Of a stretch of DNA of 63,955 nt, positions 53,735 through 59,718 are shown piece by piece. This stretch comes from an uncultured virus (IMG/VR IMGVR_UViG_3300032676_000987). Its lineage: Duplodnaviria; Heunggongvirae; Uroviricota; Caudoviricetes. Position 1 is the first letter of the stretch; each line of letters begins with the position of its first letter. The DNA lies in the IMG/VR virus record IMGVR_UViG_3300032676_000987; one strand, written 5' to 3'. The position numbers were made by a program, and so were the translations under genes. The notes beneath the pieces are model-generated. The model ran no database searches and was not told where the DNA came from. It saw only the letters and a program-made list of their open reading frames with translations.

Positions 53735-54466
53735 ATGACTATTTATTTGTATAAGAAAACTCATAACAAAACAGGTCTACACTATTTAGGAAAAACTACA
53801 CAAAATCCATATAAATATCAAGGTTCCGGAACGTATTGGAAGGATCATATTAAAATACATGGAAAAGATATTACTACTGAAATTTTACGTGAATGTCAAA
53901 CACTTGAAGAAATAAAAGAATGGGGAATGTATTATAGTACATTATGGAACATAGTCGAAGATAAAGACGAATTCGGAAAGAAGACCTGGGCGAATTTAAA
54001 ACCAGAAGCCGGTGACGGATCAACTGTAACTACCAGGCACTGGAATGACGGAAATATTACAATATTTCGAGAAACGCCACCAGACGATTCATTTAAATTA
54101 GGTAGACTTCCGTTTAACAATTTCGGTAGTGTTATTGGAGCAAATATGCAGCGAGGCAAAATTTGGATACACAACGACCACACTGAAATGATGGTTGATC
54201 CCACATCTACTATTCCACCTGGGTTTGTGCTAGGACGGGATGGTAGCAGATGGTTCGGAAAACAACAGCCTGAAACCCACAAACAAAATGGAATTAAAAA
54301 TCATTGGAGTAAAAGGGGATATACGAGTTGGAATAAAGGAAAAAAATTAGGACCGAACAAAACAATGTGGATAAATAACGGTGAAACAAACTTAAAAATA
54401 AAAGTCGGATCACCGTTACCAATTGGGTTCAAGAAGGGTCGGTTGATGCACAATACTACTAAGTAG
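53735..54466 (+). CDS. Free-standing GIY-YIG (Seg-like) homing endonuclease, paralog of 33046-33708
   Basis: Identical start MTIYLYKKTHNKTGL; WANLKPE.GDG; PDDS...GRL.FNN.G..IG...QRGK.WI. Confidence 0.8.
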   Translation: MTIYLYKKTHNKTGLHYLGKTTQNPYKYQGSGTYWKDHIKIHGKDITTEILRECQTLEEIKEWGMYYSTLWNIVEDKDEFGKKTWANLKPEAGDGSTVTTRHWNDGNITIFRETPPDDSFKLGRLPFNNFGSVIGANMQRGKIWIHNDHTEMMVDPTSTIPPGFVLGRDGSRWFGKQQPETHKQNGIKNHWSKRGYTSWNKGKKLGPNKTMWINNGETNLKIKVGSPLPIGFKKGRLMHNTTK

Positions 54467-56079: not shown

Positions 56080-56564
56080 TACCAATTACCTTCAGTGCGC
56101 ATACGTCTAATAAACGTAGGATATGTGCTACAGATTCCATAGCAATTTAGCTTGACTGTACTCAACAGCCCTCTGTCATTTATTTCAGGAAGAACGACGA
56201 TACTAGAGTTATTTACGGGTACTGTTCCGAAGGTCCACAGTTGACCGCCGCTAGTGGTAACGTACGGTGGAGGATGGGTTATGTCATACCAAAAATAATT
56301 AGGATATGATTTGATCGGCTGTGTAGAAATCCATTCTTGCATTTCGACGTTTCTAGCATTGATCCAAAAACGATTACCCTTCAGATAATCAGGTGTAACT
56401 TCTGTGAGCGGTTGGTCCGTACCTAAATACAAAATACCGTTAACTCTCCAAACATCCACTGATACCGAATATCCATGGTTAAACGCCAAACCGATTTGGT
56501 TTGGTGTGTTGGCTTGATCATAATTTTGACCGTTAAAGATTCCCTGATAAGCGATTAATAACAT
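56076..56564 (-). CDS. GDPD/PLC-like phosphodiesterase fold, catalytically degenerate
   Basis: IAYQG...ANT...GYSVSVDVW in place of IAHRG...EN...VE.DV; GICS at the C-terminus. Confidence 0.55.
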   Translation of the reverse strand: MLLIAYQGIFNGQNYDQANTPNQIGLAFNHGYSVSVDVWRVNGILYLGTDQPLTEVTPDYLKGNRFWINARNVEMQEWISTQPIKSYPNYFWYDITHPPPYVTTSGGQLWTFGTVPVNNSSIVVLPEINDRGLLSTVKLNCYGICSTYPTFIRRMRTEGNWY

Positions 56565-56581
56565 CTAGTATTTATGAAAAG

Positions 56582-56656
56582 TGGAGCTTCCAATCGGGAT
56601 CGAACCGATTTCCACGCGTTGGCAACGCATTGTAATGACCATTATACTATGGAAGC
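56582..56656 (-). tRNA. tRNA-Gly(GCC)
   Basis: GCTTCCA acceptor, ATGCG-TTGCCAA-CGCGT, GGTTCGATCCC, encoded CCA. Confidence 0.92.
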
Positions 56657-56660
56657 ATAT

Positions 56661-56735
56661 TGGAGCGGGTGGCCGGCAACGCTCCGGTCCTCTCTAGCTT
56701 GGAAGGCTAGGGCACATCTCCTATACCACACCCGC
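56661..56735 (-). tRNA. tRNA-Gly(TCC), atypical T-loop
   Basis: GCGGGTG acceptor, CTAGC-CTTCCAA-GCTAG, T-loop AGCGTTG, CCA. Confidence 0.85.
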
Positions 56736-56852
56736 ATAAATCTTCGAAAGTTCCCAGTCAAGTACAGGTCACTTACAACCCTCTATCCTAATAGGACCGA
56801 TACAGCAGTACCGGGCTCCACCAATTGTTTTTTACAGAAACAAGAAACTGAA

Positions 56853-56932
56853 TGGATGCGGGAGGCTGGATTTGAACCACCGATTTCCAGTTTATGAGAC
56901 TGGCGAGAACGACCGGACTTCTCTACCCCGCG
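56853..56932 (-). tRNA. tRNA-Met(CAT), initiator-like acceptor
   Basis: CGCGGGG with C1:A72 mismatch, CCAGT-CTCATAA-ACTGG, GGTTCAAATCC, CCA. Lacks the three anticodon-stem G-C pairs. Confidence 0.88.
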
Positions 56933-57055
56933 ACATTAAACTATTTAGAAGAACACACTTTCTTAATCTCAACGTCACCGGCCGATCAATGATCACCGTT
57001 TTTAGTTTTTTCGTAAGTGTGTTCATCAAAATAGTCTAATATTATTTATCTTTTG

Positions 57056-57470
57056 TACAGCCTGAGATTACAGCTTTAAACGAACGTCTTTGGTCATTAC
57101 CGAATCCCTTGCGGGATACTCAATGTTTCTTTGCGGGTCCGGCTCCTTATGAAACCTTCTTCGCTCGAAATGCTATCTTGCCTTTCCTTGCAGGGTCAGA
57201 CTCAATAACTACACGTTAACTTTCATCGTTCGTTAGTTTGGCTGCATGTCATGAGGGCGCCAACCCTCTTATCACTCACCGACTGGCTCTGTGACACATC
57301 CTTTCGGACAACACACCTAACTTATCGACTACCGCCTTTCTAGGGACGGATCCTTTCGGATTAGTTCGTGCTTGCATAGAGAGACCATTGGTGGCGCAAG
57401 TTTATAGGAAACCTTGCTTTAACCTCAATTGCTCAAGGCTATCTCATTATCGGGGCTATGCCCCCAATTC
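57056..57470 (-). ncRNA. Large ornate structured ncRNA (GOLLD/ROOL-like), tRNA-linked
   Basis: No credible ORF; many GNRA hairpins (CCCGCAAGGG, TCCGAAAGGA x2, CCTTGAGCAATTGAGG), GAGGGTTGGCGCCCTC; ends GCTGTAATCTCAGGC. Confidence 0.65.
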
Positions 57471-57479
57471 TTATTCTAA

Positions 57480-57650
57480 ATTGTCAAAGATCGCTGATTT
57501 CTCAGCTTATATTTCATTATATCAAAGACGCTAACGAATGTCAACACCTTTTTATAGTTTTTAAATTTTTTATTGAGAACCTGTTGAAACATTTGTTTCT
57601 CTGCGCTCTCTCGATTTTGTTAGTATACTTATATGCTAGACCAAAGTCAA
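57480..57650 (-). promoter_or_regulatory. Tandem sigma70 promoters plus boxA-like site
   Basis: TTGACT-N17-TATACT (57650-57622), TTGACA-N17-TATAAT (57544-57516), GATCTTTGACAAT (57492-57480). Confidence 0.75.
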
Positions 57651-57678
57651 TAACTTTTTTCAGTTATTTTAAAAAATA

Positions 57679-57953
57679 CGAAAAGAAAGAGTAAGTCATA
57701 GACTGTGCAAAAAACAGCGGGGCTCTTAAGAGCCACCCTTGTGTGCAATAGACACTTCACAATCTACAAAAACTACATATGTTCGAACAGCAAAGTGCAA
57801 AATGTCTTTAATAGTTCGGGTCACGTAATTATGATGCCAAAAACGGAGCTGTCAAATGTAAATTTCTAATGAAACTTACGGTGTCTACTCTAATCTCTCT
57901 TTCTTTTCGGGTGGTTTTGCCCTGCAGTTCGCGCTACAAGGCATACCACCAAA
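57679..57953 (-). ncRNA. Candidate structured RNA downstream of coiled-coil gene
   Basis: Perfect 13-bp inverted repeat 57679-57691/57897-57909 enclosing about 205 nt; strong hairpin at 57910-57953. Confidence 0.55.
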
Positions 57954-57956
57954 CCG

Positions 57957-58523
57957 TTAGATGATGTTCTCGGCCTGCAGAACCGCAACAGTCTTATCTG
58001 TCAGATGAATGACGTTGCGAACGTTGGATTCGAGAAGTTCATCTTGCAGCTTTTGCTTTTGCTTCTTGCATTCAGCAACAATGCTGCGGTAATTTTTTAC
58101 GTCTTCGGTAGTGAGTACAGACGTTTGGACTTCGCCGGCTCGTCTATAACCGAATGCATCTTCTGCACGAGTGCGGATCTTAGCTAGCTTACCGTCGATG
58201 ACAGCTTGTTCAGCACGAACCTCAGCCTTAGCATAAGAACCGTAGAACTGAATGTCCTTTTCTAGGCGAGCGATATTTGCAAGCGTGCTATTGATATCGT
58301 AGCTGTTATTAACAGCATCAACTGACTTGCGAATCTCGTAGAGGGCATCAAGCAGAGCCGTACGACGACCGACGCTAGTACTAAAAGTAGTAGCAGCCGC
58401 TGCGATTGCAGCAATCGTGTCCTGGAACTCATTCAGCCCAACCGTGTAGTTGAAGTTTAGCCCCTTGATTGCTTCATTGATAGCAACTTGCAGTGCATTT
58501 GCCTTACGCAGTGATACCTTCAT
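57957..58523 (-). CDS. Coiled-coil protein (DUF6847/DIP1984-like, tentative)
   Basis: MK..L.KA..LQ...R..L..I...N...K.KLQD.L...N....I.L architecture; GAGGA SD. Confidence 0.6.
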   Translation of the reverse strand: MKVSLRKANALQVAINEAIKGLNFNYTVGLNEFQDTIAAIAAAATTFSTSVGRRTALLDALYEIRKSVDAVNNSYDINSTLANIARLEKDIQFYGSYAKAEVRAEQAVIDGKLAKIRTRAEDAFGYRRAGEVQTSVLTTEDVKNYRSIVAECKKQKQKLQDELLESNVRNVIHLTDKTVAVLQAENII

Positions 58524-58700
58524 TTTCTATTCCTCTGTAAATTACTTGTTCTTTATACTAAATTACTAGGTGATTGTAAAGTTTTTTGGGTAACTGCTAA
58601 AAGGAATAAATACACTGTGGTAATCAAAGAAGTTGTAGTTCTTTGAAACCCAGTCTGGAGTCCGGGCTGTCCCACAAACATACTTATCTGGAGATCACTG

Positions 58701-59495
58701 ATGTCAAATAATACCTTTACCTGCACCGCGTGCGACAAATATTTTCACTCGGAACGCGGACTGCGTTCCCATTTACATTGGCACGATCCTACATATGCAG
58801 CCGCATGTTCTAATAATGGTGAAAATATCAGCAAAGGAATTCGAATAAGAGCTAACAAAGATCGAGAAATTGCAACGAGTTCTTACCTACATAATCCTAA
58901 ACATTGCAAACAGTGTAATAATCCACTGCCGTATGTTAGAAGAGGAGGTACATACTGCGATCAATCATGTGCTGCTAAATTTAACAACGTTGCTAGAGCC
59001 AAACCTAAAAAATCCAAACCTATCCGAAGCACCCGCATAAGATCCAAACTGGTCTGTAAAGAATGTGGCACTATTTTTTCGGTGACGCCATGTGAATCGA
59101 CTAGGAAATACTGTTCCGTTGCATGTAGCAATAAGAACAAATATCATCCCAATTCTACACGAAAGAAAACATGCATTTACCGCGGGCACAAGATGGATTC
59201 TGGAGCAGAGTATCAATTTGCGCTTTTACTCGATAAACACCAAATACAGTGGATCAAAAACACCACTACTTATTTCTCATTCACCGATTCTGCAGGCAAA
59301 ACAAGGAAATATTATCCGGATTTCTATCTAAAGGACTACGATCACTGGGTAGAAATTAAAGGAGAGAGATACATTCGAGAAGATGACGACTTACGCTTAG
59401 CAGCGGTAGGAAATATTGAACGAATAATGAGCAAAGATATTCGTCTTCCTAGGTGTGTTACTTCGACCACACCTAGCAGACCCATGAGCCATTGA
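58701..59495 (+). CDS. Zinc-finger PD-(D/E)xK homing-type endonuclease
   Basis: N-terminal C2H2, two CxxC...YCxxxC fingers, DS..E..FA..LD, YYPDFYL...VEIKG. Confidence 0.8.
   Translation: MSNNTFTCTACDKYFHSERGLRSHLHWHDPTYAAACSNNGENISKGIRIRANKDREIATSSYLHNPKHCKQCNNPLPYVRRGGTYCDQSCAAKFNNVARAKPKKSKPIRSTRIRSKLVCKECGTIFSVTPCESTRKYCSVACSNKNKYHPNSTRKKTCIYRGHKMDSGAEYQFALLLDKHQIQWIKNTTTYFSFTDSAGKTRKYYPDFYLKDYDHWVEIKGERYIREDDDLRLAAVGNIERIMSKDIRLPRCVTSTTPSRPMSH
59464..59490 (-). pseudogene. Possible 5'-half tRNA remnant
   Basis: GGCTCATGGGTCTGCTAGGTGTGGTCG resembles acceptor strand plus D-arm. It follows two tRNAs and is cut off by the endonuclease 3' end. Confidence 0.35.
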
Positions 59496-59546: not shown

Positions 59547-59622
59547 TGGAAGCAGTGATGGGACTCGCACCCACGATAGACAGAATATGAATCTGTTGCA
59601 TTGGCTACTATGCTACACTGCT
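59547..59622 (-). tRNA. tRNA-Met/Ile2(CAT)
   Basis: AGCAGTG acceptor, ACAGA-TTCATAT-TCTGT, T-loop TGCGAGT, CCA. Confidence 0.85.
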
Positions 59623-59631
59623 ATAATTTAA

Positions 59632-59718
59632 TGGAGGACGTAGTAGGATTCGAACCTACGATGCGCTAAGCGTCCGGATTAAGAGCCAGGTGTATTCGAC
59701 CACTATACTAATACGTCC
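59632..59718 (-). tRNA. tRNA with CTT (Lys) anticodon and long variable arm
   Basis: GGACGTA/TACGTCC acceptor, CCTGG-CTCTTAA-TCCGG, variable hairpin CGC-TTA-GCG, GGTTCGAATCC, CCA; 87 nt. Confidence 0.8.

What the first reader, a model, noticed from the sequence alone, without database searches (positions are those of the whole stretch)
57679..58523. Coiled-coil gene followed by a stem-closed RNA with short internal repeats (candidate RNP system)
Seen: right after the stop there is a strong hairpin, then a 231-nt unit closed by a perfect 13-bp stem (extended by TAGAC/GTCTA). It contains recurring TTGCAC (x3), TTGTAG, TTGTGA and TTGCTG hexamers and a GGCTCTTAAGAGCC hairpin. Inference: a protein-RNA pair in which an oligomeric coiled-coil protein binds the repeated motifs, reminiscent of type III toxin-antitoxin layouts or an RNA scaffold. 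I know no described function for it.
Basis: partly seen in the sequence, partly recalled or inferred. Interest (0 to 1): 0.75.

Follow-up and report, generated by a model that had tools for sequence, protein, structure and literature searches.

The report
Phage RNA always paired with protein
A folded RNA of about 280 bases, not found in the RNA catalogue searched, sits next to the gene of an unstudied helical protein in nearly every related large phage examined, from lake viruses to cultured Caulobacter phages, so the two probably work as one RNA-protein unit of unknown function.

Summary
It extends to a conserved structured RNA ("RNA A", window ~57672-57953, minus strand) directly 3' of a 188-aa all-helical protein gene (57957-58523).

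- **Fold:** on 35 homologs, 29 pairs are 94.9% paired and 26 have compensatory changes. G-U asymmetry puts the RNA on the gene's strand.
- **Repeats:** the "hexamers" are eight invariant UG dinucleotides at exact 7-nt spacing (2+4+2).
- **Linkage, protein-first:** 49 of 52 loci carry the RNA; the 3 misses are cut contigs. Both of 2 genome-collection loci also carry it.
- **Linkage, RNA-first:** 40 of 41 RNA copies have the gene, always on the same strand. The RNA lies 5' or 3' of it.
- **Neighbours:** no other neighbouring protein family exceeds 15 of 49 loci.
- **Cultured phages:** five Caulobacter/Brevundimonas jumbo phages with ~26-29% identical homologs have an unannotated 284-314-nt gap 3' of the gene, with the same architecture.
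- **Databases:** no Rfam, Pfam, NCBIfam, PADLOC or PDB-sequence match.
- **Expression:** two lake metatranscriptome contigs lie inside the RNA, none on the CDS.

Best reading (0.45): a dedicated RNA-protein particle, with protein copies reading the heptad-spaced UG motifs. Binding is untested. The type III toxin-antitoxin resemblance is not supported.

The parts
57957..58523 (-). Gene for a 188-aa helical protein of an unannotated phage family.
   Evidence: ORF. No Pfam, NCBIfam or PADLOC family. 799 homologs and 1561 clusters at 50% identity. AF2 pLDDT 90.9.
57672..57953 (-). RNA A: a conserved structured non-coding RNA. It starts 3-4 nt after the stop codon and ends at a U-run.
   Evidence: nhmmer profile hits in 49 of 52 loci. 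Alignment A1. Covariation. One copy in the 258,859-base phage record. RNA contigs at 57760-57938 and 57737-57921.
57910..57950 (-). The base of the stem is conserved; the upper part varies.
   Evidence: Helix 1: 6 pairs, 5 with changes on both sides, 97.1% paired.
57897..57909 (-). Closing stem, outer 5' arm. It pairs with 57679-57691.
   Evidence: I1 (13 nt, 100% complementary). Helix 2: 8 of 8 pairs with compensatory change.
57679..57691 (-). Closing stem, outer 3' arm.
57883..57888 (-). Closing stem, inner 5' arm (GUAGAC). It pairs with 57698-57703 (GUCUAU).
   Evidence: Helix 3: 6 of 6 pairs with compensatory change.
57698..57703 (-). Closing stem, inner 3' arm.
57773..57828 (-). Conserved inner stem P4/P5 (57825-57828 with 57773-57776; 57815-57819 with 57783-57787). 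Its large loop holds UG cluster 1.
   Evidence: Helices 4 and 5: 7 of 9 pairs with compensatory change.
57791..57799 (-). UG heptad cluster 1 (UGCAcuUUG): two invariant UG 7 nt apart.
57746..57768 (-). UG heptad cluster 2: four UG at 7-nt spacing (U at 57768, 57761, 57754, 57747). Two are invariant and two are present in 34 of 35 sequences.
   Evidence: spacing 7,7,7 in 34 of 35 sequences and 7,6,7 in one. for coordinates.
57708..57716 (-). UG heptad cluster 3: two invariant UG 7 nt apart, running into the inner closing arm.
57717..57739 (-). Variable hairpin P6 (contains GGCUCUUAAGAGCC). It is absent in one subgroup, where clusters 2 and 3 fuse into six consecutive heptads.
57671..57676 (-). 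U-run (UUUUUU) shortly after the closing stem: the likely 3' end of the transcript.
   Evidence: A T-run of 5 or more follows the stem in 10 of the 21 fetched 3'-type or other sequences and in 0 of 13 5'-adjacent ones (which did not score the window).

Best explanation
RNA A and the 188-aa helical protein are the two parts of one phage-encoded ribonucleoprotein module.

They are made from the same transcript. The RNA sits at its 5' end in some lineages, where a -10 box lies just upstream. In others it sits at the 3' end, often followed by a U-run.

The RNA folds into a rod-like closing stem plus the P1 and P4/P5 helices. This leaves eight UG motifs at strict 7-nt register with no conserved helix. 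I infer that several copies of the protein bind side by side on these heptads, one copy per 7 nt. This would resemble the way the HutP hexamer reads XAG triplets separated by four spacer bases.

Shown: the RNA is real, its fold is conserved, and its linkage to the gene is nearly obligate.
Inferred: physical binding, stoichiometry and any downstream function. The role of the particle in infection is unknown.
For: (1) Fold. 29 pairs are 94.9% paired on 35 sequences, against 36-48% when the 3' partner is slid. 26 pairs show compensatory change, and 0 of 500 shuffles reach the observed score. G-U/U-G cells number 138 against 16 A-C/C-A, so the RNA is on the gene's strand.

(2) Linkage, protein-first. 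RNA A was found in 49 of 52 viral loci; the 3 misses are contigs cut beside the gene. It was also found in 2 of 2 genome-collection loci.

(3) Linkage, RNA-first. Of 80 fetched pattern hits, 41 hold RNA A and 40 of these hold the gene on the same strand within 2.5 kb. The exception is cut 119 nt upstream of the RNA. 22 of the 40 contigs were new.

(4) The order flips but adjacency stays. Among 49 distinct proteins: 19 with the RNA directly 3', 19 directly 5', 8 further 3', 3 further 5'. The tree needs 10 arrangement changes, and well-supported branches force 2-3 per label.

(5) No other neighbouring protein family exceeds 15 of 49 loci, and the surrounding tRNA sets differ.

(6) Deep conservation. 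Homologs at 25.5-28.7% identity in CcrColossus, CcrPW, Domovoi, Kabachok and Bambus are each followed by an unannotated 284-314-nt gap. The gap has a P1 hairpin, a long closing stem and 5-6 UG at 7-nt spacing. A run of five heptad-spaced TG occurs at only 1-2 places per 280-353-kb genome, and one of them is this gap.

(7) UG spacing is exactly 7 within clusters in 34 of 35 sequences. Where hairpin P6 is absent the register is kept, giving six heptads in a row.

(8) Conserved R6, K7, R65, K153, K156 and aromatic F33, Y62.

(9) The HutP precedent for 7-nt-period triplets read by an oligomer (PMC2425495, passages read).

(10) Lake metatranscriptome contigs of 179 and 185 nt lie wholly inside RNA A with no mismatch, and none lies on the CDS. 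This is weak evidence.
Against: - No binding or oligomer test could be run.
- No recognisable RNA-binding domain was found in Pfam, NCBIfam or the PDB sequence search.
- Family pI ranges from 4.9 to 8.9 with a median of 6.4, so this is not a basic protein.
- Fold searches give only generic helical-bundle matches. The best is 3kdq, of unknown function, at Z 10.4 and rmsd 7.8 A, which is below the level that is informative for helical proteins.
- The PA5oct-group homologs (25.9% identity, E 1e-4) have no RNA-A-like element beside the gene, and none of the three PA5oct ncRNAs examined (001-003) has a heptad run.
- Co-inheritance of two neighbours can reflect shared expression rather than contact.
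- The first heptad of each cluster is UGYR, mostly the palindrome UGCA, so these motifs could be RNA-RNA contacts instead of protein sites.
- The RNA contigs have depth of only about 2.8 and come from libraries that can carry DNA.
Confidence: 0.45

Rival explanations
1. RNA A works without the neighbouring protein. It would be a stable RNA cut out of the transcript that either self-assembles through its UGCA-type palindromes, as GOLLD, ROOL and OLE do, or soaks up a host factor such as an RNA-binding protein or a sequence-specific RNase on its eight UG motifs. The gene would be only a co-expressed neighbour.
For: - It lies in tRNA arrays beside GOLLD in many loci.
- In L085 its profile match ends one base before the 5' end of a tRNA (match to 2923, tRNA-Val from 2925), so RNase P could define its end.
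- UGYR motifs are wobble-tolerant palindromes. Their variable positions change only C/U opposite G and A/G opposite U.
- Palindromic loops hold the GOLLD, ROOL and OLE multimers together (PMC12286853, passages read).
- The protein is not basic and has no RNA-binding domain.
- RNA contigs cover the RNA but not the CDS.
Against: - It does not explain why 40 of 41 RNA copies and 51 of 54 gene copies keep the partner on the same strand, through order flips and down to about 26% protein identity, outside tRNA arrays too.
- There is no clear pairwise covariation among the three UGYR motifs. Some sequences have only wobble combinations.
Confidence: 0.25
2. RNA A is a cis-acting untranslated region of the gene's own mRNA. 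It would protect the mRNA from exonucleases after processing out of the tRNA array, or serve as an operator through which the protein represses its own synthesis.
For: - It is always on the same strand and nearly always on the same transcript as the gene.
- It sits at a transcript end: TANAAT lies 12-13 nt before the first invariant UG in 13 of 13 5'-adjacent sequences and in 0 of 21 others. A T-run of 5 or more follows the stem in 10 of those 21 others and 0 of 13 5'-adjacent ones.
Against: - A leader-type regulator should keep its side of the gene, yet the side flips repeatedly.
- In 8 of 49 distinct loci an ORF, a tRNA or up to 1.5 kb separates gene and RNA.
- There is no excess pairing between the heptad region and the translation start: mean z -0.65, with 4 of 35 below -2.
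- A 280-nt RNA with eight invariant motifs is far more than a stabiliser needs.
Confidence: 0.15
3. A protein-plus-nascent-RNA antitermination module, working like lambda N with its nut site. The protein would bind RNA A as it emerges and make the polymerase read through the highly structured tRNA/GOLLD array downstream.
For: Such a module only needs the RNA to be in the operon, on either side of the gene. In the lake phages it sits in long same-strand arrays of structured RNA genes. That the nutL site lies upstream of N in lambda is recalled, not from a call.
Against: - In about half of the 3'-type loci the RNA is itself followed by a U-run.
- In the window the next unit has its own 12/12 promoter.
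- In the Caulobacter and Brevundimonas phages the neighbours are ordinary protein genes.
- Known elements of this kind are much smaller (recalled).
Confidence: 0.08
4. A type III toxin-antitoxin pair, in which the RNA neutralises a toxic protein.
For: Only the general layout of a structured or repetitive RNA next to a small protein gene on one transcript.
Against: - No tandem repeat array.
- No hit of any kind, and so none to ToxN/AbiQ/CptN-type families, in Pfam or PADLOC.
- The predicted protein is almost wholly helical.
- The RNA lies 3' of the gene in half of the lineages.
- It is carried by lytic-type jumbo phages inside tRNA arrays.
Confidence: 0.02

Closest known systems
GOLLD and ROOL RNAs (large ornate RNAs of phages and prophages, often near tRNA islands; PMC12286853, passages read)
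   Same: A phage-encoded, strongly conserved, intricately folded RNA of unknown function. It lies in tRNA arrays of lake phages, in several loci within 1-2 kb of a GOLLD RNA. It contains short palindromic motifs.
   Different: - No sequence or structure match: Rfam gives nothing on RNA A.
- It is 3 times smaller.
- It is built round heptad-spaced UG motifs.
- It is tied to a specific protein gene. For ROOL no protein partner has been identified, and GOLLD and ROOL assemble as RNA-only cages (PMC12286853, passages read).
- It also occurs without GOLLD and outside tRNA arrays.
OLE RNA with its partner proteins OapA/OapC (PMC12286853 and PMC3413148, search listing and passages)
   Same: A structured non-coding RNA whose function depends on a dedicated protein. 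That the OLE partner genes lie beside the RNA gene is recalled, not from a call.
   Different: OLE is bacterial (extremophilic anaerobes), about 600 nt, and its partner is a membrane protein. There is no homology of either part. Binding is shown there and not here.
HutP hexamer and the hut terminator RNA of Bacillus subtilis (PMC2425495, passages read)
   Same: Short conserved motifs (XAG there, UG/UUG here) repeated with four to five free bases between them, giving a 7-nt period. They are grouped in clusters separated by a linker (12-17 nt there, 24-26 nt here) and are read there by equivalent sites of an oligomer.
   Different: The protein is unrelated: no Pfam family at all was found, so no HutP family. 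There are 8 motifs in 3 clusters inside a stem-closed 280-nt RNA rather than 6 in a terminator leader. There is no evidence of an antitermination role. This is an analogy of mechanism only.
Type III toxin-antitoxin systems (ToxIN and relatives)
   Same: An RNA with internal repeats and a small protein gene on one transcript. Phages are known to carry RNA mimics of such antitoxins (recalled).
   Different: No tandem 34-36-nt repeats, no ToxN-type endoribonuclease, variable gene order.
Stable RNAs C and D in the tRNA gene cluster of phage T4
   Same: Small stable RNAs of unknown function encoded among the tRNA genes of a large lytic phage and processed with them.
   Different: No sequence comparison was made here. 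No linked protein is known for them.

Membership tests
Any Rfam 15 family (4227 models) | Covariance-model match at or near the family's gathering score. | tested here: not met
   Window at gathering score: only tRNAs. Window 56500-58700 at E up to 10: nothing on RNA A except a 16-bit chance-level RAGATH-22 hit on the other strand and a 13.6-bit DnaX hit. Homologous regions of L019 and L094 at E up to 1: nothing on the RNA.
GOLLD RNA (RF02032) | Match to the conserved 3' domain model. | tested here: not met
   RNA A has no GOLLD match. True GOLLD matches of 190-207 bits lie elsewhere in 8 related loci.
Type III toxin-antitoxin (ToxIN-like) | Toxin is an endoribonuclease of the ToxN/AbiQ/CptN type. 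| tested here: not met
   0 Pfam families for the window protein and 0 PADLOC families for 4 family members. The AF2 model is almost wholly helical.
Type III toxin-antitoxin (ToxIN-like) | Antitoxin is a tandem array of direct repeats of about 34-36 nt, upstream of the toxin gene. | tested here: not met
   Tandem Repeats Finder finds no such array in 56900-58600. The repeats are 7-nt-spaced dinucleotides. The RNA is 3' of the gene in 27 of 49 distinct loci.
Type III toxin-antitoxin (ToxIN-like) | The protein is toxic alone and is neutralised by the RNA. | not testable with these tools
   Needs expression experiments.
HutP-type RNA-binding antiterminator | Protein of the HutP family. | tested here: not met
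   No Pfam family at E up to 0.01. No PDB sequence match at E up to 1.
HutP-type RNA-binding antiterminator | Target RNA with triplet motifs at a 7-nt period in two clusters. | tested here: met
   UG/UUG at exact 7-nt spacing in 3 clusters, conserved in 35 of 35 sequences apart from one 6-nt step. This is a likeness of the RNA only, not membership.
Unannotated 188-aa phage protein family (weak phrog_25230) | Full-length sequence similarity to the family profile. | tested here: met
   799 homologs at E up to 0.001. 1561 representative clusters, 352 of them at E up to 1e-30, nearly all 184-191 aa. phrog_25230 matches only at E 0.0027. BFVD structural matches include a 197-aa uncharacterized CcrColossus protein (K4K6G4, the same length as gp272) at TM 0.83.

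The most novel reading that the evidence does not exclude
This is a previously unrecognised class of phage ribonucleoprotein. A helical-bundle protein would polymerise, one copy per seven bases, on an array of UG motifs displayed by a stem-closed RNA.

The particle is ancient: it is shared by uncultured lake and marine jumbo phages and by cultured Caulobacter and Brevundimonas phages. It may even be carried in the virion, because the remote PA5oct homolog carries the record's ESI-MS/MS note, the method by which the paper linked 93 gene products to virion particles (PMC7318152). It would then act on host RNA metabolism or translation early in infection.
Probability: 0.3. Interest if true: 0.85.

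Novelty: categorically new. Interest (0 to 1): 0.72.

Why it matters
- Large phages keep several abundant, elaborately folded RNAs whose purpose is unknown. GOLLD and ROOL are the best-known examples. RNA A is another such RNA, but it comes with a clear experimental handle: an almost obligate protein partner and a simple, mutable motif (UG every 7 nt).
- The module is present in cultured phages of Caulobacter crescentus, a non-pathogenic and genetically tractable host. The question 'what are these phage RNAs for?' therefore becomes directly testable through knock-outs, pull-downs and cryo-EM.
- The protein family is large: 1561 clusters at 50% identity, all annotated 'hypothetical' where they are named at all. 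A function would name thousands of genes.
- If the heptad-reading mode is right, it would add a new way for proteins to measure out RNA.

Tried and rejected
- **Complex prediction** (two copies of the protein) was not available, so oligomerisation is untested.
A 153-position model of the 3' half (R1) finds exactly one copy in the phage's own 258,859-base record. Its first-look filter found nothing in the GC-rich CcrColossus and Domovoi records. The likeness there therefore rests on position, length, fold and the heptad run, not on a model score.
- **Isolate phage searches.** blastn of the region and tblastn of the window protein and of the L087 protein found nothing. Only the divergent L158 protein reached cultured phages.
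- **First RNA pattern scan**: 32 hits, of which 25 lie in contigs already found through the protein. The 7 new ones have neither RNA nor gene and are chance matches.
- **Fold searches** (Foldseek PDB, VIA wide) gave no match above the helical-bundle background. ESM Atlas gave only unnamed viral clusters.
- **Pairing of the heptad region with the gene's translation start:** no excess.
- **The long inner hairpin of the window's own minimum-energy fold** is not conserved: most of its pairs hold in 2-21 of 35 sequences.
- **Pairwise pairing among the three UGYR motifs:** no clear covariation.
- **PA5oct ncRNA001-003:** no heptad runs.
- **MAFFT alignment to show the GOLLD deletion** placed the gap at the end. 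The deletion rests on the BLAST coordinates.
- **Metatranscriptome contigs do not cover the CDS**. This is absence of cover only, not evidence that the mRNA is absent.
- **Literature searches** found no description of this RNA or protein. The library lacks most subscription journals, and supplements were not read.
- **Earlier-scan look-ups** by place and by sequence found nothing.
Full report
**1. The observation**

The window is part of a 258,859-base virus record, estimated 73% complete. It has phage genes throughout: ligase, prohead protease, endolysin, homing endonucleases.

The flagged gene lies at 57957-58523 on the minus strand (188 aa). Between its stop codon and tRNA-Met (56857-56931, minus) lie 1,025 bases with no minus-strand ORF of 40 aa or more.

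- the hairpin after the stop (57910-57950);
- the perfect 13-bp inverted repeat (57679-57691 with 57897-57909, 231 nt overall);
- its GUAGAC/GUCUAU extension;
- three UUGCAC, plus UUGUAG, UUGUGA and UUGCUG;
- the GGCUCUUAAGAGCC hairpin.

The minus strand folds with z = -6.54 against shuffles. The plus strand gives z = -4.92.

**2. It is a conserved RNA**

A protein-anchored scan of IMG/VR gave 52 loci. An iterated nhmmer profile of the 3' flank found one copy of the element, on the gene's strand, in 49 of them. The three misses (L009, L047, L052) are contigs that end beside the gene.

I aligned 35 distinct copies (A1). RNAalifold predicts 32 pairs, 26 of them with compensatory changes. I then counted 29 pairs in five helices, with these results:
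- 94.9% of cells are paired, against 36-48% when the 3' partners are slid by 1-3 columns.
- 26 pairs have changes on both sides.
- 0 of 500 shuffles reach the observed covariation score.

G-U/U-G cells outnumber A-C/C-A cells 138 to 16, so the transcript is on the gene's strand.

The '13-bp closing stem' is the outer part of a two-part closing rod. I call the element RNA A (window ~57672-57953).

**3. The repeats**

The 'hexamers' resolve into something stricter. Ten columns carry UG in at least 34 of 35 sequences. Eight of them form three clusters with exactly 7 nt between successive UG, arranged 2 + 4 + 2. The spacing holds in all 35 sequences, apart from a single 6-nt step in one of them.

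In the subgroup that lacks the variable hairpin P6, clusters 2 and 3 join into six heptads in a row, so the register is kept.

The first heptad of each cluster reads UGYR, mostly UGCA. The next begins with UUG.

These stretches are unpaired in the consensus structure. The long hairpin that the window's own minimum-energy fold makes from them is not conserved.

Within the 64-kb window, runs of four or more heptad-spaced TG occur twice on both strands together, and one of them is RNA A.

**4. The gene and the RNA are linked**

- **Protein-first.** 49 of 52 viral loci carry the RNA. So do both loci found in the genome collection, which are marine Alteromonadales and Glaciecola bins.
- **RNA-first.** I scanned with a degenerate pattern drawn from the heptads and the closing arm. 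It matched 92 stretches, of which 80 were fetched. 41 hold RNA A by the profile, and 40 of these hold the gene on the same strand within 2.5 kb. The one exception is cut 119 nt upstream of the RNA. The other 39 are chance hits with neither part. 22 of the 40 contigs were new.
- **Arrangement.** Among 49 distinct proteins the RNA is directly 3' in 19, directly 5' in 19, further 3' in 8 and further 5' in 3. The further-3' cases have a 138-aa ORF, a tRNA or up to 1.5 kb between gene and RNA.
- **Tree.** On a maximum-likelihood tree of the protein the arrangement needs 10 changes, and well-supported branches force 2-3 per label.
- **Neighbours.** No other real neighbouring protein family is present in more than 15 of the 49 loci. 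The 24-locus cluster is an antisense ORF over the gene itself. The flanking tRNA sets differ widely.

**5. Transcript ends**

- In 13 of 13 5'-adjacent sequences a TANAAT hexamer starts 12-13 nt before the first invariant UG. This is so in 0 of the 21 other fetched sequences.
- A T-run of 5 or more follows the closing stem in 10 of those 21 sequences and in 0 of the 13 5'-adjacent ones. That script did not score the window, which itself has UUUUUU at 57671-57676.
- The RNA therefore tends to sit at one or the other end of the gene's transcript.
- In the window a weak promoter-like site (9 of 12) lies upstream of the gene (58600 to 58573). A 12/12 promoter (57544 to 57516) starts the next unit.

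**6. Expression**

17 DNA runs, mostly lake or freshwater metagenomes, hold the stretch almost completely. Three lake metatranscriptome runs hold small parts of it:
- contigs of 179 nt (57760-57938) and 185 nt (57737-57921), both inside RNA A with no mismatch;
- a contig of 174 nt (57140-57313) inside the neighbouring GOLLD 5' half.

The remaining RNA pieces are 48-nt partial matches, with 4 mismatches, over the tRNA-Met gene. No RNA contig covers the CDS. Depth is about 2.8, these are assembled contigs, and such libraries can contain DNA. This is a weak hint that the two RNAs accumulate, and no more.

**7. The protein**

- No Pfam, NCBIfam or PADLOC family, and no PDB sequence match. phrog_25230 matches only at E 0.0027.
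- The family is large: 799 homologs and 1561 clusters at 50% identity, nearly all 184-191 aa.
- AlphaFold2 with a 52-sequence alignment gives pLDDT 90.9. The model is a bundle of six helices with a small sheet formed by the two termini.
- Foldseek on the PDB finds nothing at E up to 0.001. The wide VIA search puts 3kdq (unknown function) first at Z 10.4 and rmsd 7.8 A, inside the background for helical proteins.
- In BFVD the fold recurs in uncharacterised proteins of CcrColossus, Erwinia phage pEa_SNUABM_47, Vibrio phage Vp_R1 and two giant viruses.
- Conserved residues include R6, K7, F33, Y62, R65, K153, K156, Q157, Q160 and D161.
- The median pI of the family is 6.4.

**8. Cultured phages**

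tblastn with the divergent L158 protein reached 20 records: Brevundimonas phages, Caulobacter phages CcrPW and CcrColossus, and the PA5oct group of Pseudomonas phages. Identities are 25.5-28.7%.

In all five Dolichocephalovirinae examined, the gene is followed by an unannotated gap:

| Phage | Gap (nt) |
|---|---|
| CcrColossus | 284 |
| CcrPW | 292 |
| Kabachok | 311 |
| Domovoi | 313 |
| Bambus | 314 |

The gaps fold with z = -4.97 and -3.12. They show the same order of parts:
- YUUGG and a P1 hairpin right after the stop;
- a purine-rich 5' arm pairing with a pyrimidine-rich 3' arm;
- an inner CCGG-type stem;
- 5-6 UG at 7-nt spacing.

A run of five heptad-spaced TG occurs at only 1-2 places in each of these 280-353-kb genomes, and one of them is this gap. 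The backwards-read control gives 0-1.

Here the neighbours are ordinary protein genes, so the module is not tied to tRNA arrays.

The PA5oct homolog has no such element beside it, and PA5oct's RNA-seq-defined ncRNA001-003 show no heptad runs. The paper used that method to link 93 gene products to virion particles (PMC7318152, passages read). This is a lead, not a finding.

**9. Interpretation**

The comparative evidence shows a two-part module: a structured RNA and a helical protein that stay together on one strand through order flips, insertions and deep divergence. The simplest reading is that they act together physically.

The strict 7-nt register of invariant UG with no conserved helix points to repeated recognition by equivalent sites. 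This resembles HutP's reading of XAG triplets with four-base spacers in two clusters (PMC2425495, passages read). I put this at 0.45.

The rivals are:
- an RNA that works alone, as a self-assembling RNA or as a decoy (0.25);
- a cis-acting untranslated region (0.15);
- an N/nut-like antitermination pair (0.08);
- a type III toxin-antitoxin pair (0.02), whose defining features were tested and not met.

What the particle does in infection is unknown.

**10. Novelty**

- RNA A matches no Rfam 15 family, in the window or in two relatives.
- Four literature searches found no description. The library is incomplete.
- Earlier notes of this scan list other orphan RNAs in tRNA arrays of freshwater jumbo phages. 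None matched RNA A by sequence look-up.
- Neither part belongs to a described family and no known system has this anatomy, so I rate it categorically new. The caveat is that the function is undetermined.

Noticed in passing
window 57059-57577 (minus strand): The next RNA downstream is the 5' half of a GOLLD RNA with a perfect 12/12 sigma-70 promoter (57544 to 57516). The Rfam-modelled, 'universally conserved' 3' domain is deleted here. Relatives score 190-207 bits to RF02032 in the ~417 nt (including an embedded tRNA) that the window lacks, and the window keeps only a 16-bit remnant. A DNA contig at about 84x crosses the junction, and a near-identical contig from another sample has the same form. 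A 174-nt metatranscriptome contig lies in the retained half.
   Followed up: partly
window 56582-56931 and 59547-59718 (minus strand): Five tRNA genes flank the module: Gly-GCC, Gly-UCC, Met-CAU, Met-CAU and Lys-CUU. The tRNA-Lys is 87 nt long and scores only 42 bits. In relatives the module sits in arrays of up to 21 tRNAs per 6.5 kb, all on one strand.
   Followed up: partly
L005-L010, e.g. L008:3571-3987: In one clade a 138-aa ORF with no Pfam family is inserted exactly between the gene's stop and RNA A.
   Followed up: partly
L019:3574-3915: A 342-nt stretch without a plus-strand ORF of 30 aa or more, and without an Rfam match, lies between the gene and RNA A. It may be a further RNA.
   Followed up: no
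window 58701-59495 (+) and 53735-54466 (+): Homing-endonuclease-like ORFs flank the RNA region. One is a zinc-finger/HNH-type protein of 264 aa and the other is GIY-YIG-like at 243 aa. Such ORFs are typical of phage tRNA regions.
   Followed up: no
window 57018-57048: Several DNA contigs of run X1 end or branch here (loose ends at 57018). This suggests strain variation just downstream of the GOLLD remnant.
   Followed up: no
L179 (Pseudomonas phage PA5oct, record 107445-108008): The remote homolog EST35_0180 is annotated with 'ESI-MS/MS', meaning it was detected with virion particles. It has no RNA-A-like neighbour.
   Followed up: partly
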